From IMG/VR virus record IMGVR_UViG_3300037524_001291: a DNA stretch of 64,000 nucleotides, one strand, 5' to 3'. The stretch's first letter is position 1; the number at the start of each line of letters is the position of its first letter. This document shows, piece by piece, positions 100-57,628 of this stretch. Origin of the DNA: a virus (taxonomy: Duplodnaviria > Heunggongvirae > Uroviricota > Caudoviricetes). Under the pieces are notes generated by a model, which saw only the letters and a list, made by a program, of their open reading frames with translations, did no database searches and had not been told where the DNA came from. A program made the position numbers and the translations under genes.

Positions 100-355
100 T
101 TTAAGGTTTTTACAAAATATTATGTCTTGTGACCCATCTCTAAAACCCAATTTTATGTTTAGTTATTAGAGTTATATTTTTAGAGATTTTTCAGTTACTT
201 TTTTCTTAAAAACCTTACAACTGTCTTATATAAACATTATCTAAGGTTTATGTGAAAAAATTAGTGTCTATGTTCCCTAGCAGAAAACGCTTAACTTTTT
301 TTATTTCTTTCAAAAAATCTCTCTTTTTTGAGAGGTTTTTATATTTTTTAATAAA
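100..355. repeat. Diverged ~260-bp non-coding repeat unit (copy of the 55.4-56.0 kb units)
   Basis: Core TCTATGTTCCCTAGCAGAAAACGCTTAA at 267 recurs at 55407, 55668 and 55927; flanks align with 55760-56015. Confidence 0.85.
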
Positions 356-1815: not shown

Positions 1816-2400
1816 TCAACTTGTTTTAGGCATAAAGGGTGCATAAACATAGCTAGGTTCTATAAAAGTTGCTAATTTATCTAAACTCTTTGTAGTTTTA
1901 CTAAAACGGTTGGCATACGAACTGGCAACAAAAGAGTAAGGTTTAATTTGAGTAGGTATACCGATACCTTCAAAGTATCCTAGCATTTCTCTTATTAGGG
2001 TTCTTGTTGCTCCATTTCTTCCTACATCTATATGAGCTTCGATTTTAAATGTAGAGTCTTTACTTCCCAATAGAATTTCAGAAGTTTTTAGAGTAATAAG
2101 GTCATTAAGAGTACAAATAACCTCGTAAGTACTGACTGTTTCCATATGTATTTTTTCCCTAAGACTTGTAATTCTTCTAGGTTCTATGTGTTTATTAATA
2201 CAGCACCAAGCACCATGTCCTACTCGATGTATTACAACTCCAGTAGCAAAGCAGGTTTGTTGACCTATTAATTGAGAATCTGTACCTACCATTATTTTAA
2301 AATCTCCTCTAGGGGTTTTGTTTATAAAGTCTAAAATGTTTATTTCTACATCTTCGAGACTCATATTTTTCTGAGTTGAGTTAAAGAAGATTCTTTCCAT
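1816..2400 (-). CDS. RNase H-like YkuK/DUF458 family protein
   Basis: Motifs VGTDSQ, VIHRVGHGAW, EAHIDVG and IKPYSFVASSYANRFSK. Confidence 0.85.
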   Translation of the reverse strand: MERIFFNSTQKNMSLEDVEINILDFINKTPRGDFKIMVGTDSQLIGQQTCFATGVVIHRVGHGAWCCINKHIEPRRITSLREKIHMETVSTYEVICTLNDLITLKTSEILLGSKDSTFKIEAHIDVGRNGATRTLIREMLGYFEGIGIPTQIKPYSFVASSYANRFSKTTKSLDKLATFIEPSYVYAPFMPKTS

Positions 2401-2991: not shown

Positions 2992-3165
2992 TCCTATAAA
3001 AAATAATTCTCACTAACTTGTATATAAGAAGAATACTTAAAACTTATAAAATGTATTTCAAAGACTACCTTTCTGTAATTTGTAGAGGAGGTCCTTCCAA
3101 TACTCTTAGCTTTTCAAAGACTAATTTAATTACATTCCAATAGTTGACCCTTTGAAATACACTTT

Positions 3166-3254
3166 GTGAATTACTCATGACTAAAGTCACGAGCTTCCCC
3201 TTCAATATACCTATTGGTACAAGTTTACAGGGGCTAAAGGGTAATTCCTACCCA
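3166..3254 (-). mobile_element. Orphan IS200/IS605-type right end / TnpB omegaRNA remnant (ends TTCAC)
   Basis: GGGTAGGAATTACCC hairpin, AGCCCCTGTAAACT, terminal hairpin CTCGTGACTTTAGTCATGAG and TTCAC end; no tnpB ORF adjacent. Confidence 0.7.
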
Positions 3255-3264
3255 ATAAATTTTA

Positions 3265-3397
3265 AGATACATGAGAATAATTAGGGTAGTTTGTTGTTAT
3301 CATAATAGGATTTGAACCCATTACAGCCAGATTAAATGTCTAGTGCTCTACCAATTGAGCTATACGATGGAAACTACTTCCTACACAGCATGTATCT
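3265..3397 (-). ncRNA. Y-RNA-like tRNA mimic Y1 (Lys UUU-like loop) in a long bulged stem
   Basis: 9-bp terminal stem, CUGUGUAGGAAGUAGUUU...AAACUACCCUAAUUAUUCU wrapper; inner D arm GCTC-AATTGGTA-GAGC, anticodon arm, T arm ATGGG-TTCAAAT-CCTAT. Confidence 0.8.
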
Positions 3398-3410
3398 ATA
3401 TCTTCAAATT

Positions 3411-3545
3411 ATAGTTAAGGAGGATAACTAGGGTAGTTTACTGTTATCATAATCGGACTTGAACCGACAACTAGTTTATTTTAGGAAAACTGTTCTACCA
3501 ATTGAACAATACGATGGAAACTACTTCCTACACAGCCTTAACTAT
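3411..3545 (-). ncRNA. Y-RNA-like tRNA mimic Y2
   Basis: 10-bp terminal stem ATAGTTAAGG/CCTTAACTAT, same wrapper as Y1; D arm GTTC/GAAC, T arm GTCGG-TTCAAGT-CCGAT. Confidence 0.8.
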
Positions 3546-3602
3546 ATTAAATTTTTAAGTGTAAAGAGGGATACCCTTCCCTCTTTACGATAATTTTGTG
3601 GC

Positions 3603-3778
3603 ATGATTTACATTACTACCGACATTTAATTTACTTGATCATATCTTAGTATGTTCACTCTACCATTAAGTTACCCCGCCATAGTTTATACTTACTACTA
3701 TTTTTAGAAAAAAGGCGAGAGACGGAATCGAACCATCACTTAACTTATCCGTCAAGTAAAATTTGATGTAGTAATCAT
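3603..3778 (-). ncRNA. Circularly permuted tRNA-like module B
   Basis: Order is T arm (GATGG-TTCGATT-CCGTC), acceptor 3' strand TCTCGCC, 33-nt linker, acceptor 5' strand GGCGGGG, D arm; closed by TTTACTTGA/TCAAGTAAA and ATGATT/AATCAT. Confidence 0.75.
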
Positions 3779-3803
3779 AGCCTATATTTAGCTTGTGAGT
3801 TAG

Positions 3804-3899
3804 AAATTAAAATTGACTGCGATGTGTCTGCCATTCCACCACATCCCGTCATATCGGGATGGAAGGACTCGAACCTCCAATAATCGCTTTTTTTAATTT
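3804..3899 (-). ncRNA. Circularly permuted tRNA-like module A
   Basis: T arm GGAGG-TTCGAGT-CCTTC, then CATCCCG-ATATGA-CGGGATG hairpin, then D arm GTG-GAATGGCAGA-CAC; closed by GCGAT/ATCGC and AAATTAAAA/TTTTAATTT. Confidence 0.8.
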
Positions 3900-3903
3900 A
3901 AGT

Positions 3904-4650
3904 CTAAGTTTTATCTTGACTCACAAAAATATACTGAAGTATGTTATTACCAATGTTCACATTACTAGCCTCTACATTATTTGCCTCTTCCCTAGCACAC
4001 TTAACAGCTGATGAAAACTTCTCAATCCTAGTCAAAATACCCTGTTTTATAGGTACAGGTAAAGCACCACTATACTTAACTGTATTCCAATATCCTACCA
4101 AAACATCATCACTAATTAACTGAGTTTGTGCTGGATGCTCCTTAGTAGCTTCTGATAATACTATAGGCTTTTGTACCTTTTTTGACTTGTGAGTTGTGGT
4201 TGTTTCCGTTTTATACTGTCCAGAGTTTACATCAAAAGTCCAATCCTCTGACTCATCTAATACAGGAAGTGCTTCTACAAATGACCTAATATCATTAATT
4301 TGCTTCTCTAAGAATAAAAGAAATGTAGCTGGTACACCACTAGCTAAACACTTACCCTCAACAATTATATCAGCTAAAGCATTACAATTAGCATAATCTT
4401 TAGTAGCAGTTATATCAAACATCTCAGTTAGGGTGGTACACAAACCATCTATTTGCTCAACTGCCGTATGAATAACCTTCTTTTTTTCTTGAGGATAGTC
4501 TTCCCCTTCTTCATCTTTTTTCTGATAAGTTTTAGTAAAACCATTAAACAGATCAGGTTTTAGGGATATTTTGTGTAGATCTGATACTGTAGCATATGAT
4601 CTTGATTTAATTCCCTTCTCAATTGCAATAACTTGATTAAGCTTTTTCAA
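3904..4650 (-). CDS. Conserved uncharacterised protein (KLNQ.IA.EKG.KS family)
   Basis: TTG start 7 nt after RBS AGGGGG. Motifs DITATKDYANCNALAD, PATFLLFLEKQ, EATKEHPAQ, GYWNTVKYSGALP and AVKCAREEAN match a bacterial DUF family I recall (not verified by search). Confidence 0.85.
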   Translation of the reverse strand: MKKLNQVIAIEKGIKSRSYATVSDLHKISLKPDLFNGFTKTYQKKDEEGEDYPQEKKKVIHTAVEQIDGLCTTLTEMFDITATKDYANCNALADIIVEGKCLASGVPATFLLFLEKQINDIRSFVEALPVLDESEDWTFDVNSGQYKTETTTTHKSKKVQKPIVLSEATKEHPAQTQLISDDVLVGYWNTVKYSGALPVPIKQGILTRIEKFSSAVKCAREEANNVEASNVNIGNNILQYIFVSQDKT

Positions 4651-4687
4651 TGTTTTTCCCCCTACTTTAAAATACCTCATTTATACT

Positions 4688-4723
4688 TGGTGTTGGGTTT
4701 TATATGGGAAAACCTTGTCACCA
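4688..4723. repeat. Repeated hairpin, copy 1
   Basis: TGGTGTTGGGTTTT...GGGAAAACCTTGTCACCA; second copy at 4938-4971. Confidence 0.7.
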
Positions 4724-4856
4724 ACAACCAGAAAAAACCTAAGTAATTTAACTAAAACTTTTCAAGTTTGAACTCTTACTCTCTCTTAGGTGTTACTTTT
4801 AGATCCTAAGAAGAATGAAAGGTTCTCTGCTTGTAAATATCATTTAAAACTACTTA

Positions 4857-4928
4857 TAGCACCGATTGGATTTGAACCAATGTTCTTTGGATTATGAGTC
4901 CAATGGGATACCACTTCCCTACAGTGCG
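4857..4928 (-). tRNA. tRNA-Met(CAU), initiator-like
   Basis: C1:U72 mismatch, G11-C24 pair, anticodon arm TTGGA-CTCATAA-TCCAA, T-loop TTCAAAT. Confidence 0.88.
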
Positions 4929-4937
4929 ACATAAATA

Positions 4938-4971
4938 TGGTGTTGGGTTTTTTAGGGAAACCCTGTCACCA
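4938..4971. repeat. Repeated hairpin, copy 2
   Basis: TGGTGTTGGGTTTTTTAGGGAAACCCTGTCACCA. Confidence 0.7.
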
Positions 4972-5006
4972 TAGAACAATAAAAACCCTACTACCACACT
5001 AATACT

Positions 5007-5101
5007 TTGAACCTCACATCACTAAAGTGAGATGATTCCTGCTTCACTGACCTCGTAACCTACTATCTCCACAGGCTTAAAATTCCGTAGTTCCTACCGT
5101 A
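5007..5101 (-). mobile_element. omegaRNA-only copy of the right end of the IS200/IS605 element at 53044-54823
   Basis: About 93/95 identical to 53044-53138; ends TTCAA; TTGAT immediately 5' (5102-5106). Confidence 0.9.
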
Positions 5102-5109
5102 ATCAACAG

Positions 5110-5290
5110 CATCTACCCATAGTAGAAATTGACAAATAAAATATGGGTCTTTCCCCATCTGTCACCTATATTAAACTGATTATTAGACTAGTGGTTCAGC
5201 CTTTGAAACCCATATCAGCTTGAGGTAGCTCCTTAACAGTGCCTGTGTCGTTGCTACAATCTTCCACCTACTTACATAGGGAGCACTTAG
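5110..5290 (-). ncRNA. Candidate structured RNA (unassigned)
   Basis: GC-richer non-coding stretch with several complementary segments (GCUCC/GGAGC, GUGG/CCAC, CUGAU/AUCAG, AUGGGU/ACCCAU). Confidence 0.35.
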
Positions 5291-5296
5291 ATGTAC

Positions 5297-5345
5297 TTAA
5301 GATAAAAGGATTCGAACCTTTTAAGTATCCATCTATACTATCTTA
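5297..5345 (-). ncRNA. Mini tRNA-like element lacking the anticodon arm
   Basis: TAAGATA/TATCTTA 7-bp acceptor, GTAT-AGATGG-ATAC D-like arm, AAAGG-TTCGAAT-CCTTT T arm. Confidence 0.6.
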
Positions 5346-5356
5346 TAAATATTTTA

Positions 5357-5492
5357 ACATGAAAGAGAATAACTAGGTACTTTGAAACCTCAAAGAGGCT
5401 CGTGTCGGAATTGAACCAACAAATTTTTTCTCCAAATGAAAACGCTAGACCATCTAGCAACGATGTAAAGTATTCCTACACAGCTTTCATGT
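5357..5492 (-). ncRNA. Y-RNA-like tRNA mimic Y3 (Gln UUG-like loop)
   Basis: 9-bp terminal stem ACATGAAAG/CTTTCATGT, wrapper CUGUGUAGGA...CCUAGUUAUUCU, D arm GCTAG/CTAGC, T arm GTTGG-TTCAATT-CCGAC. Confidence 0.78.
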
Positions 5493-5531
5493 ATTATTTA
5501 ATTTTCAAGGGTCTCAACTAACATCTCTCAT

Positions 5532-5561
5532 AGTATAAATCAGTGAGTTTATCTTTGTCAA
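5532..5561 (-). promoter_or_regulatory. sigmaA-type promoter upstream of the ncRNA island
   Basis: TTGACA-18 nt-TATACT. Confidence 0.6.
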
Positions 5562-5682
5562 TACCCTAAATATAAAATTTTTAAATTAGTGATGTTATCA
5601 TGTTATTTATTTTCATATGACAAAAACATCAGATTGTTGTTAGGCTCTAGTCTAACTTTCAGCGATGTTATCATAAACCATC

Positions 5683-7294: not shown

Positions 7295-8482
7295 TTAGAG
7301 TAATAATGGTACTAGATGATAAAACCTATAACCACCACCACTCCAATTAACTCTTTTTGAAATTCCTCCCTGTTCTCCGTCTACAACTTTATCCAAGCGA
7401 GTTTTACAATGGGTATAACAGTGTTTACCAATCTCAATACCAATCCATCTTCTACCCATTTTAAGTGCAACGGCAGCGGTAGTTCCAGAACCAAGGAAAC
7501 TATCAAGAACTAAATCACCTTCAGTAGAACCCAAGGTTAGTATTCTTTCTAAAAGTCTTTCTGGCTTTGGAGTAGCAAAAACATCATCCCCATTAAAAAT
7601 TTTTACTTCTGCTCTTGCCTCATGAGTATGACCAACCTCATCAAATCTCCAAAGAGTTTTTGAAGGTACACCTACCTTTTTCAAGTCACACAAAAACGTT
7701 TTTCTTGAGGGTATAGCTTTCCCATCCTTACCAAACCAAATCTCATCATTTTCATCCATTCGAGCTAAGCTTTCTTTAGTATATCTTTCAAATGTTCCTA
7801 ATGGAGGCATCCAAGTAACTCCATTTTTGAAAGTAAAACTAAACTTCTCACTAAATAAAGATCCACTTTTTGCATGAAGAGGAGTGGATTTCCACACACC
7901 TTTAGAACTCTTATCTGGATTTCTATATGCCTTATCCATTTCTTCAGAACGAGGTAATCTATTTGGTCTCCATACATTTTTATTTTTAGCATAAAGTAAA
8001 ATATGATCATGAGTATCAGATAACCATTTTGTGTCATTAGCTCTGGTGTACTTTTTTTCCCATATAATATTAGTGATAAAATTTTTGCGACCAAAAATTT
8101 TATCACAGAGAACTTTTAAGTAATGACATTCATTATCATCAATACTAATCCAGATACTCCCATCATCACTCAACAAATTATAAAGAACATCCAATCTTGA
8201 TTTCATAAAACTAAGCCAAGTATCATGTTCTAAATTATCCTTATAGTGATCAAAGACCAAACCTGTATTATAGGGAGGGTCTATATAAATACATTTTATT
8301 TTCCCAGAGTAGTCATGTTCCAATGTCTTTAATGCAAGTAAATTATCCCCATATATTAAAATATTCTCAGTATTTTCATCTCCATAAGATTTTTCCTCAT
8401 CATAAATCAACCTTCCGAGATCCTTTTTAGATTTATCACCCTTTCCTATACAAGTTAATTCAAGCTTCTCAATATTAACCAT
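7295..8482 (-). CDS. Adenine DNA methyltransferase (beta class, type III Mod-like)
   Basis: YIDPPYNTG catalytic motif, [21 protein letters not shown]-binding motif. Confidence 0.93.
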
Positions 8483-8524
8483 TTATGTATTTACCTCCCA
8501 AAATAGTGAATTTACCATAAAGTA

Positions 8525-9241
8525 TTACTTTTCTAATATATATACTTTAGCTTTTTGTATTCCAAATTTATTACAAAGAGAGGTTTTATTTTCTCCCATA
8601 TAAATATCAATAATATCTCCTTTAACAGCTGATCCTGTATCCATAGCTTTATATATGCCGTTCATGTATGAGTATTTTTCAGGAAATTGAATATATAGAA
8701 TACTTCCTAAAGGTATTGTGTTAGGGTCTACAGCTACAGTAGTTTTATAAATAACTCTCTCTCCAGTTCTCGTTATACCATACTCAGGGTGGCTAGGTCT
8801 TTTTCCACAACTTACTATGGATAGGTCATATGCAGTAGCTCTCATATTAAGCATCTTACTATTATTTAGAATTTTCTTTGTTACTATATAGTCTCTTTTA
8901 GTTCCTCTACTAACTATTGTTTTAGAAGCTTGTATTCTATTATTAATACTTTCAAGAGTTTTTATTTGTTGTTCTAGTGTGCTTGCCTTTTTAAAGATTT
9001 CATCTAATTGCTTTGTAGTGTAAGAGTTTTGCTCTAGGGATTTCTGTAGTTTTTCCTGTAATTTTTCCTGTAATTTTTTATTTCCTACTCTTATCTGTTC
9101 TAACTCATTTTTTGCTTCTTGTATAGTGATATTCAGTCTATTTACTTTGTCTACTTGGACAATGTAAGGAATAGATATCAAGACTAACAGTAACAGTGCA
9201 ATTATTAGGATACTTAAAGTTCTTAATAATTTCTTGTTCAG
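8525..9241 (-). CDS. 3D-domain cell-wall-binding/lytic protein with coiled coil and N-terminal membrane anchor
   Basis: RATAY, AVDPNTIPLGS, AMDTGSAVKGDIIDIY. The frame extends to a CTG placed after RBS GGAGG, adding MNKKLLRTLSILIIALLLLVL. Confidence 0.88.
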   Translation of the reverse strand: MNKKLLRTLSILIIALLLLVLISIPYIVQVDKVNRLNITIQEAKNELEQIRVGNKKLQEKLQEKLQKSLEQNSYTTKQLDEIFKKASTLEQQIKTLESINNRIQASKTIVSRGTKRDYIVTKKILNNSKMLNMRATAYDLSIVSCGKRPSHPEYGITRTGERVIYKTTVAVDPNTIPLGSILYIQFPEKYSYMNGIYKAMDTGSAVKGDIIDIYMGENKTSLCNKFGIQKAKVYILEK

Positions 9242-12494: not shown

Positions 12495-13325
12495 CTAAAC
12501 AACCTCACTCTCAGTTTGAGGTTCTTTTTTAGAGTTTTTGGGTAAGATGTTAGTAGTATTATTAGTATTATTAGTAGTATTATTAGTTTTTAAACCTTTT
12601 TGTTTCTCTTTCATCTGCTTCATATCCCTAAATAGAAGGTCAATAGGGAAGTGTTTTTTATATTTACCGTTAGCTTCATAAGGTTGTATATCCTGTTCCA
12701 AGAAGAAATTAGATATTCCATTTAGAACTAAGGACTTTCCCATACGAGGGTCACAAGAGATGTTATAACCTAATAAAAAGCCTTTAATCATGCTTTTTTG
12801 ATAATTCATAAGTTTTATATTATTTTTATTTTCTATGTACTTTATTATTTGTAGTAAGGTTCTTTTATCCTCAGTTACTACTCTGACTTCTTTTTCTACT
12901 ACTTTTTCTACTACTTTTACATCTTCATCTACTAGGGCTAGGCTTTCTTTTAAGCTTTTATCTATATTCCCCATATCGTAAGGGCTTAAAGTTCCTACAA
13001 ATCTCTCTAATCTTTCTTTATCTACGGTAGTTATATGATTTAGTAATACAATAGAGGGTTTTGTTAGCCCACTCTCATTCCAAAACTCTAATTTTACCTG
13101 TACAGGTAAAACTCCTTTATCTTTAGAGGTTATAGGAGCTATAATAACTGTGGGACTAAACTCATTACCTTTATTATTTTGTAGTATTACAGCAGGTCTT
13201 TGTCCTCTTTGCTCACTCCCATAAGTTTTATCATCTCCCAAATTAACATAATATATATCACCTCTAAAAGGAATTAACTTTCTTACTCCCATTTCATTAT
13301 ATAAGTTAATACTATTTCTACCCAT
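12495..13325 (-). CDS. MazF/PemK-family endoribonuclease domain fused to an unknown C-terminal region
   Basis: RGDIYYVNL, GSEQRGQRPAVILQN, TVIIAPITS. Confidence 0.85.
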   Translation of the reverse strand: MGRNSINLYNEMGVRKLIPFRGDIYYVNLGDDKTYGSEQRGQRPAVILQNNKGNEFSPTVIIAPITSKDKGVLPVQVKLEFWNESGLTKPSIVLLNHITTVDKERLERFVGTLSPYDMGNIDKSLKESLALVDEDVKVVEKVVEKEVRVVTEDKRTLLQIIKYIENKNNIKLMNYQKSMIKGFLLGYNISCDPRMGKSLVLNGISNFFLEQDIQPYEANGKYKKHFPIDLLFRDMKQMKEKQKGLKTNNTTNNTNNTTNILPKNSKKEPQTESEVV

Positions 13326-36072: not shown

Positions 36073-36636
36073 TTACAGGTTCTCCATATCTGAAAGAGTA
36101 TTAGACATAGTAGATAAGATTTTGTCTACTATATCTTGTTGTGGAGGTTCTTTATCCTCAAAAGGTACAGCTATAAGAAGTCCCATAATACTCTCCTGAT
36201 AATATATAGCTTTTATAAAAACCTTATTGAATACTTCAGAGTGGTTTGTTAGGGGTATTTGTTTATAAGTTTTTAAGATATCTCTAGGTAGGTCTTTAAA
36301 CTCATCAAAGATTTCTTTTAGATCCTGAGATATTTGGTATCCTTTTAAAAATCTTTCTTTTTGTTCATCTCCTTTAAACTCAAAGATAAAATCATGGTTA
36401 ACTATACAAATCTGTATACCTAAAGCTTTTACACCAGAGAGTACTAGATCTCTTATAATCTCATTATGTTTTTTTGAAATAATAGAATTGTATTTCTTAA
36501 CTAACAGATCCCCATTATCTGTTATGATAAGTTCTAGAGGGTCACCTTCAGATATTTTAAGTTTTTTTCTAAGTTCTTTAGGTATAACCACCCTACCTAA
36601 ATCATCTATTCTTCTTATAATACCTACATCACTCAT
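36073..36636 (-). CDS. SpoVT-like transcription regulator (AbrB domain plus GAF-like domain)
   Basis: GIIRRIDDLGRVVIPKELRKKLKISEGDPLE...KKY. Confidence 0.9.
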   Translation of the reverse strand: MSDVGIIRRIDDLGRVVIPKELRKKLKISEGDPLELIITDNGDLLVKKYNSIISKKHNEIIRDLVLSGVKALGIQICIVNHDFIFEFKGDEQKERFLKGYQISQDLKEIFDEFKDLPRDILKTYKQIPLTNHSEVFNKVFIKAIYYQESIMGLLIAVPFEDKEPPQQDIVDKILSTMSNTLSDMENL

Positions 36637-42900: not shown

Positions 42901-43134
42901 AGTTCCTGTGAATAAACCAACGAATCCATTAGTTTGACCAAGCAAATTATAGAAGTACTTACCATTTGCTAAGTCTAGGGCTGTTTGAACCCCAGGTATG
43001 TTATTAAACAGTGACCTCAAGGTAAATGCGGTATTTCCTAATACTACTGTATCGTTAGGTAGTGCCATAGCTGGTGTACTTAACAACATAACCAAAGCTA
43101 AAGCTAACGATATAACTCTCATCTTTCTTTTCAT
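39934..43134 (-). CDS. Large secreted S-layer-like protein with Thr-Pro linker and Ig-like domains
   Basis: Signal peptide after GGGAGG, (TPTA)n linker, V.F...VD...A....NY Ig-like (Big) patterns. Confidence 0.8.
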   Translation of the reverse strand: MKRKMRVISLALALVMLLSTPAMALPNDTVVLGNTAFTLRSLFNNIPGVQTALDLANGKYFYNLLGQTNGFVGLFTGTPMTPQEKSSFSNITLWDKDGTNPPTSQLWSDFDTLATGSPTATPTATPTATPTPLRSAVEQISFVSYRHIKVTFNKAVDLASAKDPRNYYFEMVDGSAVWNTPSILESNQLSNLATTYSGGIDEWWNHNISSANVNGKTVVNIYLPEDARFTNIEDLDLTDDAEKTLVIVMRASKTAVPTTKSLVKDMSVNVGVRNIKDTSGRFSINTAVQSIKILDLVKPELVGVNKVPFNNVTSVSEGTSLPVELGTFDLVRTLPSNSQEAEKISLLYSEPVFDTHDLSISALLRDRNVRLYVNNNLIASTLMGNINEYLTFRMDADSDYWDSRIVTLEAEKAVLKECERFNEEFAVHQTYNIQIKGITDLAGNIEVPAEHYLTVKFHDNAVVPPVIVPPVIKNIDQVADNIFRVEFNREDVQGTLKIKNPDGEGIGLLQVPFAPSKKSANGKYYSYVAVPCVDTEPSGAIPTGVHSSEYLAYDNQDVIYRDVCVEEAVVAHPVHPLYANSMYKVGMELRNDILAPTTLGIADIKYKGRGTVLSIPVKDVNPWVADENITPFVAPIAYQYDDLRFKNTISRNQYNNDHYLPITVSYVDKNGATHKAVVTNYTLRPDAPIPPTENSDNHPGFLGSISFDWNTNELLLDLSNYPELLENAKLVGNTQYKVEIPNGYFTDSPLDNELNTFEQTPEITDLLVPSTVEYDFEFGGNFYDILYVDDARVETPERYHFRRHDNHVGLGYTSTQMTRLGKVLEKLPKPTPEQYVPQTSRELMYYDEASNSMRVEFTGTIDVRTLTNKDNYSLDGKTLTEWDALLGTNTVIEYTVNNADPDNKHQYAIFVLPRDSVKETGDCAFSVSRVAHPDGGQMFPVDVRVWVLDNARPVVLNAKVTGTNQIKVEFDEQVRYFVAPSVNADSNSSARNFKVTIGGQLWTVTSAVIPEGGNNREVILNLGNVIPSNGVITVEIVKDQNDNILMIDKSTLKNPLKMDVYPVTRP

Positions 43135-43197
43135 AAAAACTTCCTCCCATGTCATTTTTTTATCATTAAGAAGATTATACATCTTCAAAAGACCTTT

Positions 43198-45423
43198 TTA
43201 TTTTACAATTGTGTATCCTGTGGAACTATTTGTACTTACATTAACTACTACAGTACCCACAACAGTTTCGTCATTATTTAATATACTAACTATTCTTGTT
43301 GTCTCTGTAGTATTAACCTCAATAGTTTCTCCAATAGGTTTTATTAGGGTAGAGCCTTCTACTTTAAACTTTGTACCTATTGTAGAGGATATAACCTTAA
43401 TACTTTTAAAAGTGGGAAGTGATTCAGCAACTACTACAGAAATATTAGATGTTTGTATCTCTGTATCAGATAGTATCACATTGTACCAATTTTCACTTCC
43501 AGTACTTATATTTAGAACTAAAGTTCCTCTTACTATTAAACCAGTACTATCTAAAAAGGTAATAAGAACTGTTGTATTACTAGAGTTAATTACTATAAAA
43601 TCTCCTACATCTTTAACTAAACTTGATCCTTCAACCTTAAATTTAAGTCCTAAAGGAGCATCGAGTAATTTAATAGTCTTAAAACTAGGTAGAGCCTCAG
43701 CTACCACTACAGACATTTTAATATTACTTCCGATAGGTGGTGTAGGTGTTGGTACTACTGTAGCTGTAGGTGTTGCTGTAGCTGTAGGTGTTACTGTAGG
43801 TGTTACTGTAGGTGTTGGGCTAGGTGTTACTGTAGATGTTGGGCTAGGTTTTATAAGTAAAGTTATAGTATATTCCTTTACTTGATTAGTACCTACATCA
43901 ATAACAACTGTCCCTATAACCCTACCATCTAAATCTAGGATTGAAAGTAATTTAGTAGTATCTCCTGTATTAATAACAACTTCTTCTCCTAAGTTTTTAA
44001 TTAGGGTAGAACCATCAACTTTAAACTTAGAACCGATATTTGATTCTACTTTTACATTTTTAAAAGTAGGTAATGAAGAAGCTACCACTACAGTAACCTT
44101 AGCTTTATAACTAGGTGTTGCTGTAGGGGTAGGAGTTGGTACTACAGGTGACTTTATTATTGTATAATTCTTAGTACTAGAAACTCCAACATCAATATCT
44201 GTTGTTCCAAGTACTACATCATTAGCATCTAATACAGAAAGTTTCCTTTTAGTTTCAGATGTATTAACTACAATATCCCCACCGATACCTTTAACTAGGG
44301 TTGATCCTTCTATCTTAAACTTAGTTCCGATTGTCATAGTATTTACTTTTATATTCTTAAAAGTAGGTAATGAAGAAGCAACTACTACCGTAACATTAAC
44401 AAGTTCATTAGGAACTTCAGTAGGCTTAGGTGTTGGTACTGCTATAGAAGTATTTCCACCACCGCCACCACCTCCACCAGAACTCTGATAAGGTGTTACT
44501 GTAATTTTAAATTTACTTGTTACAGGATATGAATTAGATCCTTTACGAGATGCAGTAATAGTTATTTCAGAAGTTCCCTGTGATACAGGAGTAATTGTCA
44601 TAGTAGAATCTTTAAGAACTACTTTTACAACTGAGGTATTACTTGAAACAACTGTTAAATCAACTGTTTCTGGTGATACTTTAATTGTTTGACTAAAAAC
44701 CCCAGTATTTAATGATATAACTTTATCGTCTATCTTAGTAATAACTATTGAAACTGGTGTTGATGTAGGGGATGGTGTTGATGTAACTACAGCATCTTTA
44801 CCTTTTAGCTTCAATATATTTTGAAGTACTACTATAGCTTCAGCTCTAGTTATTAATTTTGTATGACGGAAGTAACCATCTACATATCCACTCATATAAC
44901 CTTCTTTAATAACTGCGTTGATGTATCCCTTACTCCATTCTGGGAAGTCTTTAGAATCCTTTAAAGTGCTAGGAGTACTTGTTGTTTTTAATTTCATTAT
45001 TCTTGCTACTATAACAGCCACTTCTTGTCTTGTTATCTTTTTATTAGGACTAACTTGATTTGACCCTACCCCTACTAAATAACCATTTTTCTTTGCTATA
45101 GAGGTTTGACTGTAGAACCAATCACTAGGACGAACATCTGAGAAATTATCTCCCTCCTCCGTAAATCCAAATGACTTATTAACTAGGGTTATGAGTTCTG
45201 CCCTTGTTATGGGTTTATCCAATCCAAGTGTTCCGTCTGGATATCCTTTAATGATACCAGAATCTATCCAAATAGAAACTTGATCCTTAGCCCAGTGGTT
45301 TTCCAACTCTGTATAAGTATTCCCTACAGCAAAAACAGATCCTGATAATATACTAATCATCATTATCATTGCTGTAAGAAATGCAACAGATTTGTTTCTA
45401 CTTCTAGTACTAAACTCCAACAT
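43198..45423 (-). CDS. S-layer homology (3x SLH) protein with Ig-like domain and four C-terminal repeats
   Basis: HWAK...GIIKGYPDGT...ITRAE, FSDV..SDW, ITRQE, ITRAE; four V.VVA.SLPTFK repeats separated by TP linkers. Confidence 0.93.
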   Translation of the reverse strand: MLEFSTRSRNKSVAFLTAMIMMISILSGSVFAVGNTYTELENHWAKDQVSIWIDSGIIKGYPDGTLGLDKPITRAELITLVNKSFGFTEEGDNFSDVRPSDWFYSQTSIAKKNGYLVGVGSNQVSPNKKITRQEVAVIVARIMKLKTTSTPSTLKDSKDFPEWSKGYINAVIKEGYMSGYVDGYFRHTKLITRAEAIVVLQNILKLKGKDAVVTSTPSPTSTPVSIVITKIDDKVISLNTGVFSQTIKVSPETVDLTVVSSNTSVVKVVLKDSTMTITPVSQGTSEITITASRKGSNSYPVTSKFKITVTPYQSSGGGGGGGGNTSIAVPTPKPTEVPNELVNVTVVVASSLPTFKNIKVNTMTIGTKFKIEGSTLVKGIGGDIVVNTSETKRKLSVLDANDVVLGTTDIDVGVSSTKNYTIIKSPVVPTPTPTATPSYKAKVTVVVASSLPTFKNVKVESNIGSKFKVDGSTLIKNLGEEVVINTGDTTKLLSILDLDGRVIGTVVIDVGTNQVKEYTITLLIKPSPTSTVTPSPTPTVTPTVTPTATATPTATVVPTPTPPIGSNIKMSVVVAEALPSFKTIKLLDAPLGLKFKVEGSSLVKDVGDFIVINSSNTTVLITFLDSTGLIVRGTLVLNISTGSENWYNVILSDTEIQTSNISVVVAESLPTFKSIKVISSTIGTKFKVEGSTLIKPIGETIEVNTTETTRIVSILNNDETVVGTVVVNVSTNSSTGYTIVK

Positions 45424-45430
45424 AAACTTT

Positions 45431-45562
45431 CTGCTACTATAAACATAGACAAATATCTATGCAAGAAAATTGCTGGTTCAACGTGTCTGTTCTCGTATAT
45501 CTCTATACTACTAACATTTAATATAACACTCCACAGCCGTAAATTCCCATGTAACCCACGGT
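45431..45562 (-). mobile_element. Degenerate TnpB omegaRNA/right-end remnant (IS607-like end)
   Basis: ACCGTGGGTTACATGGGAATTTACGGCTGTGGAG...CGTTGAACCAGCAA pattern; no tnpB ORF. Confidence 0.55.
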
Positions 45563-52900: not shown

Positions 52901-53149
52901 TTCTAAGTCAAACACTATATAATGCATCACTTCTTAATATCACCTTTCTCTCTCAAAGCAGTTTTATAAATATGTTCTAATCGAGCTAAAGTAAATAGGT
53001 AAGAAGTATGATTTTCCATAGTTTTTATTTCTTTAATAACACTTTGAACCTCACATCACTAAAGTGAGATGATTCCTGCTTCACAGACCTCGTAACCTAC
53101 TATCTCCACAGGCTTAAAATTCCGTAGTTCCTACGGTAGTTTCTTTATA

Positions 53150-54271
53150 TTATATTGCTATTAATCGTAATCCTTCATTTTTAATATTTATCGCTGCATT
53201 AATATCTCTATCATGTTCACTTCTACAGCTAGAACATATCCATTTTCGAACTGATAAATCCTTGGTTTCTTTATTTTGATATCCGCAGTTACAGCAAAAT
53301 TGACTGGATGGATACCATTTGTCTATTTGCACCAATGTTCTATTATACCACTTAGCTTTGTACTCCATCTGTCTAACAAATTCACTCCACGATACATCAC
53401 TTATCGCTTTTGCTAAACAATGATTTTTAACCATATTTTTCACTTGCAAACTTTCTAAACAAATAATTTGGTTTTCATTAATAAGTTTAGTTGAAAGTTT
53501 TTGGATAAAATCTTTTCTTTGATTGGTAATTTTTTCATGTACTCTATTTAATTTAATTCTTTGTTTGTGCCAATTTTTACTTCTTTTTTTCTTAGATGTT
53601 AATCTTCGTTGCATCTGTTTTAATTTTTGTTCTAGTTTGTATAAATGTTTTGGATTTTCAAATTTTTCACCTACTGAAGTAATAGCAAATTCTTTAATGC
53701 CTAAATCCACACCAATATAACTTTGATTCTGGGGCAACTGTTCTATTACCACATCCCCGCAACAAACTGACACACAATACTTGTTTGACGGTGATTTACT
53801 AATTGTGCAATTTAAAATTCTTCCTTGAACATCTTGTGATAATGCTATTTTTATTAATCCCAATTTAGGTAATTTTATCTTATTACCTCTGATTTCAATG
53901 TTATTATTCGTAAATGTTGTTTTATATGAATAATCATGGCTGTGTTTATTTTTAAATCTAGGAAACCCTTGTTCTTTATTGCCTTTTTTAACTTCCCTAA
54001 AGAAATTCTGATAAGCTTTATCCAAATCTTTAAGTGAGTTTTGCAGTGCGAATTTATCTATTTCTTTTAACCAATTTAATTCTATTTTTAGCTGAGTTAA
54101 ATCTGCCGAGCAAGCATTATAATTTGAGCTTTGTTGCTCGTTTTTATATAATTCAATTCTTTTATTCAGATAATAATTATAGACAAACCTACAAGACCCA
54201 AAGGTTTTAGATAATTGTTTTTCTTGTTCCTTATTCGGATAAATTCTATATTTATAAGCTTTCTCTATCAT
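53150..54271 (-). CDS. tnpB: TnpB RNA-guided nuclease
   Basis: KAYKYRIYPN; RuvC D (VDLGIK), E (CLESL) and D (DRDINAAINI) intact; Zn finger. Confidence 0.96.
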   Translation of the reverse strand: MIEKAYKYRIYPNKEQEKQLSKTFGSCRFVYNYYLNKRIELYKNEQQSSNYNACSADLTQLKIELNWLKEIDKFALQNSLKDLDKAYQNFFREVKKGNKEQGFPRFKNKHSHDYSYKTTFTNNNIEIRGNKIKLPKLGLIKIALSQDVQGRILNCTISKSPSNKYCVSVCCGDVVIEQLPQNQSYIGVDLGIKEFAITSVGEKFENPKHLYKLEQKLKQMQRRLTSKKKRSKNWHKQRIKLNRVHEKITNQRKDFIQKLSTKLINENQIICLESLQVKNMVKNHCLAKAISDVSWSEFVRQMEYKAKWYNRTLVQIDKWYPSSQFCCNCGYQNKETKDLSVRKWICSSCRSEHDRDINAAINIKNEGLRLIAI

Positions 54272-55382: not shown

Positions 55383-55399
55383 ACCTCTAAAGTAAAAAA

Positions 55400-56015
55400 T
55401 TTTTAGTCTATGTTCCCTAGCACAAAACGCTTAAATCTCACTATCTACTGTTTTTTATAAAACCTTATAACCCTCACCAACATACATTTTTAGAGGTTTT
55501 ATTATAGATTTGTATTTTTCTCATTTCTCAATATTATGTATTTTTCACACAGTTTTATGTTATTTTAGGTGTAAAAAATATTTGTATTATTTTAATAAAA
55601 ATCCCTATAACTATTTACTACAAACATTATTAGGGTTTATTGTTAATTTTTCTTTAAAAATTTTATCTCTATGTTCCCTAGCAGAAAACACTTAACTTTT
55701 TTTCTCTCTTTTTCTCTCCCATTAAAAATATTTTCTGTAAGTGTTTGGTGGTAAGAGTTTTAAGGTTTTTCAAAAATGTTATGTACTTTTGACCTCTCTA
55801 AAACCCTTACATTATGTTTAGTTATTAAAGTTATATTTTTAATGATTTTTCTCTCTTACTTTTCTCAAAAACCCTATAACTGTTTTCTACACAATACATA
55901 AAGGGTTTTATAAGAAGAATTTAGTGTCTATGTTCCCTAGCAGAAAACGCTTAACTTTTTATACTTTTTCAAAAAATCTCTCTTTTTTGAGAGATTTTTT
56001 ATATTTTTTAATAAT
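55400..56015. repeat. Three tandem diverged ~260-bp non-coding units
   Basis: 28-bp core at 55407, 55668 and 55927 (spacing 261 and 259); shared AAAAA(T/C)CCTATAACT sub-element. Confidence 0.85.
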
Positions 56016-56372: not shown

Positions 56373-57587
56373 TTAACTATTTCTAAATTTATCGACAACT
56401 ACAACACGCTCCCCATCATCACTAAAACTAGTGTAAGCTTTATCAGCTCCAATATACTTACTTAAAACTTCCACAAATCTTGATATATCTAATACTTCTT
56501 GTTTTTCATCCTCTACAAAAGATATCTCACCATCTAGATGGTCTAAACATGTTACAGCAAGACTTACATTATAAGGTAATCCCTTAGCTTTTTCTAAATC
56601 TCTAGCTATCATTTTTTTAAAGTAATTTATATCTAATAAAGCATACCTTAATTTACCTTGAAATTCATTATATACATTGGTTAAATCTACTATCTTTGAA
56701 TAAGGTTTAATGTCCAACTCATAAGGGAGTGGTCCAGCACCATGACGAGTAAGATAAGGTCTTGTTACATATACAATTTCTATATCCCCATCTAAATAAT
56801 TACGTTCTTTTATAAGTTCCACTACATTCGATATACCTGTATTGGAGTGTGTTACATGAGGAAAGTTCTCATGATTTTGATCTAAGAGTAGACCTTGAGC
56901 CCCTTCAAAAATGATATGATTATAATCATCCAAACAACTTGAATCTACTGTTAGGGATATCTTTTTCAATTCTTCTATATCCAAAAGAAACCTACGTATT
57001 ACTCCATCATCTTCTAGAAGTTTAGTAGCCCATTCAGGTATTTCTTTTATTCCAAAATCTTTGATTTTATAAGTCATATGTTTATCTTTTATAAGTCTCA
57101 TTTTTTTCTCTAAACTTACCGTATCATATATATCATTTACTTCTATTTTATAATCGTCAATATGACTTCTTACTATTGTTTCATGTATACCGAAACCACA
57201 GCTACCATGTCTTTTATCACCTCTATCAAATTCTTTTATTTGATTGAGTATAATATCATAAGGTGTAGTTATCAAACAGTTCTTATCAACTAATAGAGAT
57301 ATATTAGGGGTTATTTTTACTAAGTCACTATACTCTTTTAAAACTCTTCTAGGATTTACAATAAAGTATTTTCCTAAGTAAGTTGGTAATCCTCTAAGAG
57401 TACCACAACCAAAACTACCAAAAACATGTCTATGACCTTTAGAAGTTACTACAGTGTGCCCTGCTTGACATCCACCATTAAATCTAACTACAATACCACC
57501 TTTTGCATTACGGGAAAGGTATTCAGTTACTAATCCTTTTCCCTCATCTCCCAAATTACTACCAATTACAACCTTAATATTTTTCAT
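56373..57587 (-). CDS. purA: Adenylosuccinate synthetase (divergent PurA-like)
   Basis: GDEGKG, RFNGGCQAGHT, FEGAQGLLLD, TRHGAGP. Confidence 0.9.
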   Translation of the reverse strand: MKNIKVVIGSNLGDEGKGLVTEYLSRNAKGGIVVRFNGGCQAGHTVVTSKGHRHVFGSFGCGTLRGLPTYLGKYFIVNPRRVLKEYSDLVKITPNISLLVDKNCLITTPYDIILNQIKEFDRGDKRHGSCGFGIHETIVRSHIDDYKIEVNDIYDTVSLEKKMRLIKDKHMTYKIKDFGIKEIPEWATKLLEDDGVIRRFLLDIEELKKISLTVDSSCLDDYNHIIFEGAQGLLLDQNHENFPHVTHSNTGISNVVELIKERNYLDGDIEIVYVTRPYLTRHGAGPLPYELDIKPYSKIVDLTNVYNEFQGKLRYALLDINYFKKMIARDLEKAKGLPYNVSLAVTCLDHLDGEISFVEDEKQEVLDISRFVEVLSKYIGADKAYTSFSDDGERVVVVDKFRNS

Positions 57588-57628
57588 AAAATTCCTCCCC
57601 TTAAGCATTAATACAAGAACCACTAAAC

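What the first reader, a model, noticed from the sequence alone, without database searches (positions are those of the whole stretch)
3265..5492. Three tRNA bodies wrapped in a conserved Y-RNA-like stem, in non-permuted order
Seen: Y1 (3265-3397), Y2 (3411-3545) and Y3 (5357-5492) each carry D, anticodon and T arms in normal tRNA order. The acceptor helix continues into a long stem with a shared internal loop, 5'-CUGUG-UAGGA...CCUA-(G/A)UUAU(U/C)CU-3'. It is closed by 9-10-bp terminal helices whose sequences differ in all three copies but still pair, which is compensatory-type evidence. Knowledge: bacterial YrlA Y RNAs are tRNA mimics with a Ro60-binding helix (GNCGAAN0-1G; here GUAGGAAG, two changes), but their module is permuted (T arm, acceptor, D arm). 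Inference: a distinct Y-RNA topology that keeps an anticodon arm and has a blocked acceptor end. It could tether Ro60 or act as a decoy. No Ro60/TROVE gene is in the window.
Basis: partly seen in the sequence, partly recalled or inferred. Interest (0 to 1): 0.88.

Follow-up and report, generated by a model that had tools for sequence, protein, structure and literature searches.

The report
Stem-capped tRNA mimics in a phage
An uncultured wetland phage carries three copies of a tRNA-shaped RNA whose two ends are sealed by a long stem with a strictly conserved internal loop, so they look like non-decoding tRNA mimics, but no relative elsewhere, no Ro60 partner and no function could be shown.

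Summary
Y1 (3265-3397), Y2 (3411-3545) and Y3 (5357-5492), all on the minus strand, share one architecture. It runs: a 9-10 bp terminal helix, an internal loop CUGUG / RUUAUYCU, helix UAGG/CCUA, an AA bulge, a 6-7 bp helix, then a tRNA-like body in normal order.

The loop and UAGG/CCUA are nearly invariant. The terminal helix differs in sequence but always pairs. The tRNA body is the least conserved part.

Y1 and Y2 score as tRNA but carry A33 or C33 and a C1.A72 mismatch. Y3 has only a 4-bp acceptor plus an extra hairpin. The family is therefore not a set of ordinary decoders.

The Y RNA/Ro60 reading is not supported:
- There is no Rfam YrlA or Y_RNA match.
- The "Ro60 motif" with two changes occurs at chance frequency.
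- There is no TROVE gene in the window or in five related phage records.
- D. radiodurans Yrn1 already has the non-permuted order.

No homologue of the wrapper was found in IMG/VR, in GTDB genomes or in 91 related loci. One metatranscriptome contig spans Y1 with its wrapper.

Best reading: lineage-specific, tRNA-Lys-derived, end-blocked tRNA mimics, possibly decoys for tRNA-targeting factors. Function is inferred, not shown.

The parts
3265..3397 (-). Y1, 133 nt. P1 3397-3389 / 3273-3265; loop CUGUG 3388-3384; UAGG 3383-3380 / CCUA 3285-3282; AA 3379-3378; P3 3377-3371 / 3292-3286; 3' loop AUUAUUCU 3281-3274; tRNA-Lys(UUU)-like body 3369-3297 with A33 and C1.A72
   Evidence: (model R1, 150 bits)
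3411..3545 (-). Y2, 135 nt. P1 3545-3536 / 3420-3411; loop CUGUG 3535-3531; UAGG 3530-3527 / CCUA 3432-3429; P3 3524-3518 / 3439-3433; 3' loop GUUAUCCU 3428-3421; body 3516-3444 with a Leu(UAA)-like loop CCUAAAA (C33), a weak anticodon stem, no long variable arm, and the same acceptor and D arm as Y1
   Evidence: 146 bits
5357..5492 (-). Y3, 136 nt. P1 5492-5484 / 5365-5357; loop CUGUG 5483-5479; UAGG 5478-5475 / CCUA 5377-5374; P3 5472-5467 / 5383-5378; 3' loop GUUAUUCU 5373-5366; tRNA-like core 5466-5400 (4-bp acceptor, 5-bp D stem, anticodon loop AUUUGGA, T arm); extra hairpin 5399-5387
   Evidence: tRNA 26.5 bits, below GA; 108 bits
5532..5561 (-). Promoter-like site TTGACA-18-TATACT (11/12), about 40 nt upstream of Y3. 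Candidate start of the island transcript
   Evidence: a consensus match only; the total count of such sites is not above the shuffles
3134..3402 (-). Stretch held as one contig in a wetland metatranscriptome: Y1 with both wrapper junctions, plus 130 nt downstream. It ends inside the 13-nt Y2-Y1 spacer. The strand of the contig is not informative
   Evidence: In the first 20 kb of the window, only this stretch and 4994-5271 are present in the two RNA libraries

Best explanation
Y1-Y3 are a lineage-specific family of tRNA-derived structured RNAs of about 133-136 nt. Y1 is clearly derived from tRNA-Lys(UUU). They are transcribed with the rest of the minus-strand tRNA-like island. An L-shaped tRNA-like body is kept, but its acceptor end is closed by a bipartite rod of about 21 bp. 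This keeps the RNA out of aminoacylation and translation, and probably protects its ends. The invariant asymmetric loop (CUGUG / RUUAUYCU, next to UAGG/CCUA) is the selected element. I read it as a docking or cleavage site for one protein that handles all three copies. The three bodies display different anticodon stem-loops: Lys UUU with U33A, Leu UAA with U33C, and Gln-like UUG. My preferred mechanism is that they act as decoys or sponges for factors that recognise tRNA anticodon arms, most plausibly host anticodon nucleases. Shown: the architecture, the pattern of conservation, the non-canonical tRNA features, and presence in an RNA library. Inferred: a stable capped species, protein binding at the loop, and the decoy action.
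For: - All three copies share the fold, and the closing helix covaries.
- The wrapper loop is more conserved than the tRNA body. This is the opposite of what is expected for a leader and trailer that are discarded.
- Y3 keeps every helix through compensatory changes, yet it has only a 4-bp acceptor and an inserted hairpin. A 7-bp chargeable acceptor is therefore not what is selected.
- Y1 and Y2 have A33 and C33 where tRNAs have U33, and they have C1.A72.
- Y2 lacks the long variable arm, while the phage has a normal class II tRNA-Leu(UAA) at 1472-1552.
- Y1 and Y2 share their acceptor and D arm and differ mainly in the anticodon arm.
- A metatranscriptome contig bridges both wrapper/body junctions of Y1.
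- The closest relative (L033, DUF7873 72% identical) has ordinary tRNAs at the corresponding places, so the wrapper is an added feature.
- Phage tRNAs with altered anticodon loops as counter-defence are an established idea (PMC10264068).
Against: - No homologue was found outside this contig, so all covariation comes from three paralogues.
- No binding protein was identified.
- The RNA evidence is one low-depth assembled contig. It cannot show ends, strand or abundance, and it continues 130 nt past Y1.
- UUU, UAA and UUG read the phage's commonest Lys, Leu and Gln codons (AAA 78%, UUA 38%, CAA 76%). This fits real supply tRNAs equally well.
- The loop between P3 and the acceptor could let RNase P and RNase Z release Y1 and Y2.
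- The host and its nucleases are unknown.
Confidence: 0.4

Rival explanations
1. Pre-tRNA cassettes. Y1 and Y2 (and perhaps Y3) are precursors of real tRNAs, possibly nuclease-resistant ones. The paired leader and trailer with its conserved loop is a processing or timing signal (RNase III-like, RNase P/Z, or a phage endonuclease). It is removed to give tRNAs of about 75 nt, to which the CCA end is then added.
For: - Y1 and Y2 score like the phage's other tRNAs (53 and 48 bits against 52-66).
- The other phage tRNAs do not encode CCA either (tRNA-Met).
- The anticodons match the most used codons.
- An unpaired loop separates the acceptor from P3.
- Anticodon-loop variants of phage tRNAs are known (PMC10264068).
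- M. smegmatis YrlA is cut by RNase P and receives CCA (PMC4201824).
Against: - The wrapper is more conserved than the body.
- Y3 cannot form a canonical acceptor.
- A33 and C33, C1.A72, and Y2 as a class I 'Leu' alongside a true class II tRNA-Leu(UAA).
- An RNA contig spans both junctions uncut.
- No other tRNA of the window has such flanks (Tyr, Asp, Leu and Met). Nor do the ordinary tRNAs that model R1 hits in the related loci.
Confidence: 0.2
2. A Ro60-type Y RNA. The terminal stem and loop bind a host Ro60/Rsr, and the tRNA-like module tethers a partner such as PNPase.
For: - The overall plan (ends paired in a stem with a conserved internal irregularity, plus a tRNA-like module) resembles D. 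radiodurans Yrn1 (PMC4201824).
- Two permuted, YrlA-topology modules lie in the same island.
- Some jumbo phages encode TROVE proteins (PMC7824862).
Against: - No YrlA or Y_RNA covariance-model match.
- The motif resemblance is at chance level.
- No TROVE in the window ORFs tested or in five related phage records.
- The terminal helix, which is the Ro60 site in known Y RNAs, is not conserved in sequence here.
Confidence: 0.07
3. A DNA-level feature. A small mobile or recombining tRNA-like cassette, with ends CTGTG...TTATYCT, has inserted into the loops of pre-existing hairpins. The 'terminal helices' are then just the different host hairpins.
For: - The ends of the conserved block are sharp, and the flanking inverted repeats differ in every copy.
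- The phage carries an IS605-type TnpB element and a stray copy of its end inside the island.
Against: - No empty site, target duplication or further copy was found.
- The ends do not resemble the IS end copied at 5000-5101.
- All internal helices of the cargo covary as an RNA.
- The region is in an RNA library.
Confidence: 0.05

Closest known systems
Deinococcus radiodurans Yrn1 (Y RNA bound by Rsr/Ro60)
   Same: The 5' and 3' ends pair in a long stem with a conserved irregularity. The stem leads into a tRNA-like module in non-permuted order, with an anticodon-like arm between the D-like and T arms (PMC4201824).
   Different: Yrn1 has no full D arm, a 6-nt 'anticodon' loop, a sequence-conserved Ro60-binding helix and an adjacent rsr gene. 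Y1 and Y2 are nearly complete tRNAs, the closing helix is variable, and no Ro60 is in sight.
YrlA RNAs (Rfam RF02553)
   Same: tRNA mimics with T and D arms, closed by a stem formed from the RNA ends. They are also found in phages.
   Different: YrlA is permuted (T arm, acceptor hairpin, D arm), lacks an anticodon arm, carries GNCGAAN0-1G and lies within 4 kb of Ro60. Y1-Y3 fail all four tests. The two neighbouring modules at 3590-3900 have the YrlA topology, but they too do not match the model.
Phage tRNAs with anticodon-loop changes that evade host tRNases (van den Berg et al. 2023, PMC10264068)
   Same: Phage-encoded, tRNA-shaped, with substitutions in the anticodon loop beside an otherwise normal anticodon.
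   Different: Those are free, chargeable tRNAs. Here the acceptor end is sealed, position 33 itself is changed, and one copy has no proper acceptor.
T4 rnaC / rnaD (species 1 and 2 stable RNAs in the T4 tRNA cluster)
   Same: Stable RNAs of about 120-140 nt with unknown function, inside a phage tRNA gene cluster. rnaC has a tRNA-type T arm.
   Different: No cloverleaf in normal order, no terminal wrapper, no shared loop and no sequence similarity.

Membership tests
YrlA (Rfam RF02553) | Match to the covariance model at or above 69 bits | tested here: not met
   cmscan of 3200-5600, both strands, at E<=10 gives no YrlA row. The family is present in the library.
YrlA (Rfam RF02553) | Permuted module: T arm, acceptor hairpin, D arm; no anticodon arm | tested here: not met
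   Y1-Y3 have the order D, anticodon, T.
YrlA (Rfam RF02553) | GNCGAAN0-1G near the 5' end | tested here: not met
   GUAGGAAG has two mismatches. Such near-matches number 2183 in the window against 2324 expected.
YrlA / bacterial Y RNA | Encoded within about 4 kb of a Ro60 (TROVE) gene on the same strand | tested here: not met
   No TROVE in the 50 window ORFs scanned, which include every ORF of 255 aa or more except the embedded one at 42998-43885(+). None in 5 related phage records. The rest of this phage genome and the host are not available.
Y RNA in the functional sense | Bound by Ro60 in vivo | not testable with these tools
   Needs immunoprecipitation or pull-down.
tRNA (Rfam RF00005), functional decoder | Covariance-model score at or above 29 bits | tested here: inconclusive
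   Y1 53.1 and Y2 48.1 bits, met. Y3 26.5 bits, not met.
tRNA (Rfam RF00005), functional decoder | U33 in a 7-nt anticodon loop | tested here: not met
   Y1 CAUUUAA (A33) and Y2 CCUAAAA (C33). Only Y3, AUUUGGA, has U33.
tRNA (Rfam RF00005), functional decoder | 7-bp acceptor stem with free 5' and 3' ends | tested here: not met
   Y1 and Y2: 6 bp plus C1.A72, with both strands continuing into P3. Y3: 4 bp plus an inserted hairpin. Release by RNase P or RNase Z was not tested.
tmRNA (standard or permuted) | Detection by ARAGORN or the Rfam tmRNA models | tested here: not met
   None in the window. As a positive control, a permuted tmRNA was detected in the relatives L022 and L023.

The most novel reading that the evidence does not exclude
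The phage makes a set of end-capped tRNA decoys. These would be L-shaped RNAs that cannot be charged, each presenting a different anticodon arm with the nuclease-critical position 33 altered. They would soak up or block host anticodon nucleases or other tRNA-directed defence proteins. The invariant loop would recruit a protein that matures or stabilises them. This would be an RNA-only anti-defence principle distinct from supplying replacement tRNAs.
Probability: 0.2. Interest if true: 0.85.

Novelty: new variant of a known kind. Interest (0 to 1): 0.55.

Why it matters
tRNA mimics are known in bacteria and phages (YrlA/Yrn1, tmRNA and newer structural families), and phage tRNAs are now seen as counter-defence tools. 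A mimic that keeps the whole cloverleaf, anticodon arm included, while sealing the acceptor end behind a conserved protein-type loop has not been described, to my knowledge. If it is a stable species, it would give a simple, testable model of how a virus uses the tRNA shape without translation. It would also give a natural end-capped tRNA scaffold. If it is only an unusual precursor, it would still show a new way of packaging phage tRNAs for processing. The case is limited by having one metagenomic genome and three paralogues.

Tried and rejected
1. Exact and degenerate wrapper patterns in IMG/VR. These gave only chance hits or unrelated tRNA leaders: L001-L021, L114-L123. L121 and L114 carry the 12-mer GCUGUGUAGGAA before ordinary tRNAs but have no wrapper.
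2. The same patterns in 185,579 GTDB genomes. The results were 0 hits and 23 chance hits, none with a wrapper by model R1 or by folding.
3. Covariance model R1 and a fuzzy motif search over 91 DUF7873-linked loci (488 kb) and over five whole related phage records. Only ordinary tRNAs matched, mostly through the body positions alone (about 25-110); the few full-length alignments had no paired wrapper. Scores were at most 49 bits, against 108-150 for Y1-Y3.
4. A leader/trailer duplex screen of 134 tRNAs. Strong flank pairing is not rare in dense, GC-rich tRNA arrays, so I make no rarity claim from single duplexes.
5. The DUF7873 protein as a possible partner. There was no PDB sequence hit. The AlphaFold model is good (pLDDT 85), but there was no informative fold match. 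Its relatives lack Y-type wrappers, so it is not the wrapper's specific partner.
6. T4 rnaC and rnaD have a different architecture.
7. Readings of the loop as a K-turn, a loop E, an 11-nt tetraloop receptor, a bulge-helix-bulge splice site or a hammerhead/twister core. By inspection the defining nucleotides are absent, and Rfam found no ribozyme family here.
8. MazF (UACAU) sites in the wrappers: present in 2 of 3 copies, not significant.
Full report
**Setting.** The window is 31% G+C, with essentially all genes on the minus strand. No whole genome is held for it, and it has no nucleotide match among deposited phages. The DNA comes from wetland metagenomes. The gene content is phage-like and largely novel. 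It includes DNA methylases, a thymidine kinase, ThyX, dUTPase, an SF1 helicase, an SLH-domain protein, a PurA-like enzyme, an IS605-type TnpB, a MazF-domain protein and a SpoVT/AbrB-like protein.

**The observation.** On the minus strand, Y1 (3265-3397), Y2 (3411-3545) and Y3 (5357-5492) align over their whole length. Each folds on its own into the same shape:
- a terminal helix P1 of 9-10 bp;
- an asymmetric internal loop, CUGUG on the 5' side and A/G-UUAU-U/C-CU on the 3' side;
- a 4-bp helix UAGG/CCUA;
- a 2-nt AA bulge;
- a 6-7 bp helix P3;
- a tRNA-like core with D, anticodon and T arms in the normal order.

The 11-mer CTGTGTAGGAA occurs exactly three times in 64 kb, only here.

The conservation pattern is as follows:

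| Segment | Identity between copies |
|---|---|
| CUGUG + UAGG + AA | 11/11 in every pair |
| CCUA | 4/4 |
| 3' loop | 6-7 of 8 |
| P1 strands | about 50% |
| tRNA body | 41-70% |

P1 pairs in 100% of cells, and 4 of its 10 columns changed on both sides. Perfect 9-bp pairing at this span occurs at 3 in 10,000 random positions of the window. The covariation comes from three paralogues only.

**Are they tRNAs?** Y1 (53.1 bits, Lys UUU) and Y2 (48.1 bits, UAA) pass the Rfam tRNA threshold. Y3 (26.5 bits) does not. Several features argue against ordinary decoding.
- Y1's anticodon loop is CAUUUAA, which is the tRNA-Lys loop with U33 replaced by A.
- Y2's loop is CCUAAAA, a Leu(UAA)-type loop with C33. 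It sits on a weak stem, in a class I body with no long variable arm. The phage has a normal class II tRNA-Leu(UAA) at 1472-1552.
- Y1 and Y2 share an identical acceptor and D arm, with a C1.A72 mismatch. They differ mainly in the anticodon arm.
- Y3 keeps well-formed D, anticodon and T helices through compensatory changes. However, it has only a 4-bp acceptor (UCGU/ACGA), and a 13-nt hairpin is inserted before the 3' strand of P3.

The part that should be discarded in a precursor (the wrapper loop) is the best conserved. The part that should be constrained in a tRNA is the least conserved. On the other side, UUU, UAA and UUG read the phage's most used Lys, Leu and Gln codons. An unpaired loop separates the acceptor from P3 in Y1 and Y2. 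The phage's other tRNA genes also lack an encoded CCA. Release of Y1 and Y2 as tRNAs therefore cannot be excluded.

**The Y RNA / Ro60 reading.** A permissive cmscan (E<=10) of 3200-5600 returned only tRNA and noise, with no YrlA and no Y_RNA. YrlA (RF02553) is in the library. The proposed Ro60 motif needs two substitutions. Such near-matches occur 2183 times in the window against 2324 expected. No TROVE domain was found in the 50 window ORFs scanned, which include every ORF of 255 aa or more except an embedded one at 42998-43885(+). None was found in five related phage records, two of them complete. In known Y RNAs the sequence-conserved Ro60 site is the terminal helix, and here that helix is the variable part. 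Finally, Chen et al. 2014 (PMC4201824) already describe D. radiodurans Yrn1 with the orientation opposite to YrlA, with an anticodon-like arm. The non-permuted plan is therefore not a new Y-RNA topology in itself. Membership in the Y RNA family is not supported. A Ro60-like mode of action remains possible but unlikely.

**Relatives.** No homologue of the wrapper was found in any of the following searches.
- Four IMG/VR pattern scans and a 3'-motif scan.
- Two GTDB genome scans.
- A fuzzy motif search.
- Covariance model R1 over 91 loci fetched through the neighbouring DUF7873 gene.
- R1 over five whole related phage records.
- R1 over the pattern hits, which folding confirmed as negative.

R1 scores Y1-Y3 at 108-150 bits and everything else at 56 bits or less, which is ordinary tRNAs whose flanks do not form a wrapper. 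The closest relative, L033, has a DUF7873 protein 72% identical. It conserves the RNA modules next to DUF7873 but has ordinary tRNAs where Y1/Y2 and Y3 lie. The wrapper therefore looks like a recent, lineage-specific addition to tRNA genes.

**Expression.** A promoter-like site, TTGACA-18-TATACT, lies about 40 nt upstream of Y3. It is a consensus match only. Two wetland metatranscriptomes hold parts of the island. Within the first 20 kb of the window, the only stretches present are 3134-3402 and 4994-5271. The first stretch covers Y1 with both wrapper/body junctions and 130 nt downstream, and it ends in the 13-nt Y2-Y1 spacer. These are low-depth assembled contigs. They suggest transcription, and they suggest that uncut junctions exist. 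They cannot show ends, strand or abundance.

**Context.** The island holds other tRNA look-alikes, which I followed only in part.
- Directly after the DUF7873 gene (3904-4680) lie two circularly permuted modules (about 3800-3900 and 3590-3790). Each has a T arm, an acceptor hairpin and a D arm closed by a long stem.
- The first module is conserved in L033, L027 and L026, with fully covarying acceptor hairpins.
- A strict regular expression finds such a module downstream of DUF7873 in 15 of 55 distinct loci.
- DUF7873 gave a confident model (pLDDT 85) with no informative fold match.

These neighbours show that this phage group invests in tRNA mimicry. They do not share the Y wrapper.

**Verdict.** Y1-Y3 are real, structured, selected elements. 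The best-supported reading (about 0.4) is a family of end-blocked tRNA mimics derived from tRNA-Lys. Their invariant loop would be a protein docking or processing site. Their variable anticodon arms, altered at position 33 in two copies, would be offered to tRNA-directed factors, plausibly as decoys for anticodon nucleases. The concept of altered phage anticodon loops is in PMC10264068.

Rivals:
- unusual pre-tRNA cassettes (about 0.2);
- a Ro60-type Y RNA (about 0.07);
- a DNA-level cassette inserted into hairpins (about 0.05);
- the remainder is something not yet thought of.

I class it as a new variant of a known kind (phage and bacterial tRNA mimics). Interest is moderate to high. It is limited by a single metagenomic genome and by the lack of orthologues and of end-mapped RNA.

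Noticed in passing
window 3800-3925 (-) and 3590-3790 (-): Two circularly permuted tRNA-like modules lie directly after the DUF7873 stop codon. Each has a T arm, an acceptor hairpin and a class II-type D arm closed by a long imperfect stem. The topology is that of YrlA or a two-piece tmRNA, but there is no Rfam match. The first module is conserved, with covarying acceptor hairpins, in L033, L027, L026 and others (15 of 55 loci by a strict pattern).
   Followed up: partly
L054 and L057, just downstream of the DUF7873 gene (rows): In some relatives the loop of the permuted module's acceptor hairpin begins with ACCA. This would fit cleavage into a two-piece, CCA-ended tRNA-like RNA.
   Followed up: no
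window 3904-4680 (-): The DUF7873 protein (Pfam E 2e-94) is very often next to tRNA genes or tRNA-like RNAs in phage and metagenome contigs. The AlphaFold model is confident (pLDDT 85; helical bundle plus beta sheet), with no informative match in PDB or AFDB.
   Followed up: partly
window 5283-5346 (-): A mini tRNA-like element without an anticodon arm lies 10 nt after Y3. It has a 7-bp acceptor UAAGAUA/UAUCUUA, a D arm, a UUA linker and a T arm AAAGG-UUCGAAU-CCUUU.
   Followed up: no
window 5000-5101 and 53037-53138: A 102-nt stretch inside the island is 97% identical to the stretch next to the 3' end of the IS605-type tnpB (53150-54271). It is a stray IS end or omega-RNA-like copy. Metatranscriptome contigs cover 4994-5271.
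   Followed up: partly
window 4857-4928 (-): tRNA-Met(CAU) has a C1.U72 mismatch (initiator-like end). Near-identical hairpins flank this area at about 4690-4735 and 4935-4975.
   Followed up: no
L027 6733-6808 (also L030, L080): A relative has a tRNA-like gene directly after DUF7873. Its anticodon arm is a 7-bp stem with an AAAA tetraloop, so it is another evidently non-decoding tRNA mimic.
   Followed up: no
L022 / L023 8552-8849: Rfam finds a permuted tmRNA (RF04321, 59.8 bits) 1.8 kb downstream of DUF7873 in a complete 104-kb phage record.
   Followed up: no
window 45470-45537 (-): A RAGATH-18 RNA (69 bits) lies just downstream of the SLH-domain gene.
   Followed up: no
window 12495-13325 (-) and 36073-36636 (-): A 276-aa protein has a MazF/PemK endoribonuclease domain. 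Far from it lies a MazE/SpoVT-like protein. The latter hints at a spore-forming Firmicute host.
   Followed up: no
window 1816-2400 (-); L026 about 8066-8575: A YkuK-type RNase H-like protein (PF04308) lies beside the tRNA island. A similar ORF follows a tRNA in L026.
   Followed up: no
window 247-316, 55387-55456, 55648-55717, 55907-55976: A four-copy direct repeat of about 70 nt shares the core TCTATGTTCCCTAGCAGAAAACGCTTAAC. It may be a regulatory or promoter element.
   Followed up: no
window 56373-57623 (-): An adenylosuccinate synthetase-like gene in a phage. It could be PurZ-type (2-aminoadenine DNA). I did not examine it.
   Followed up: no
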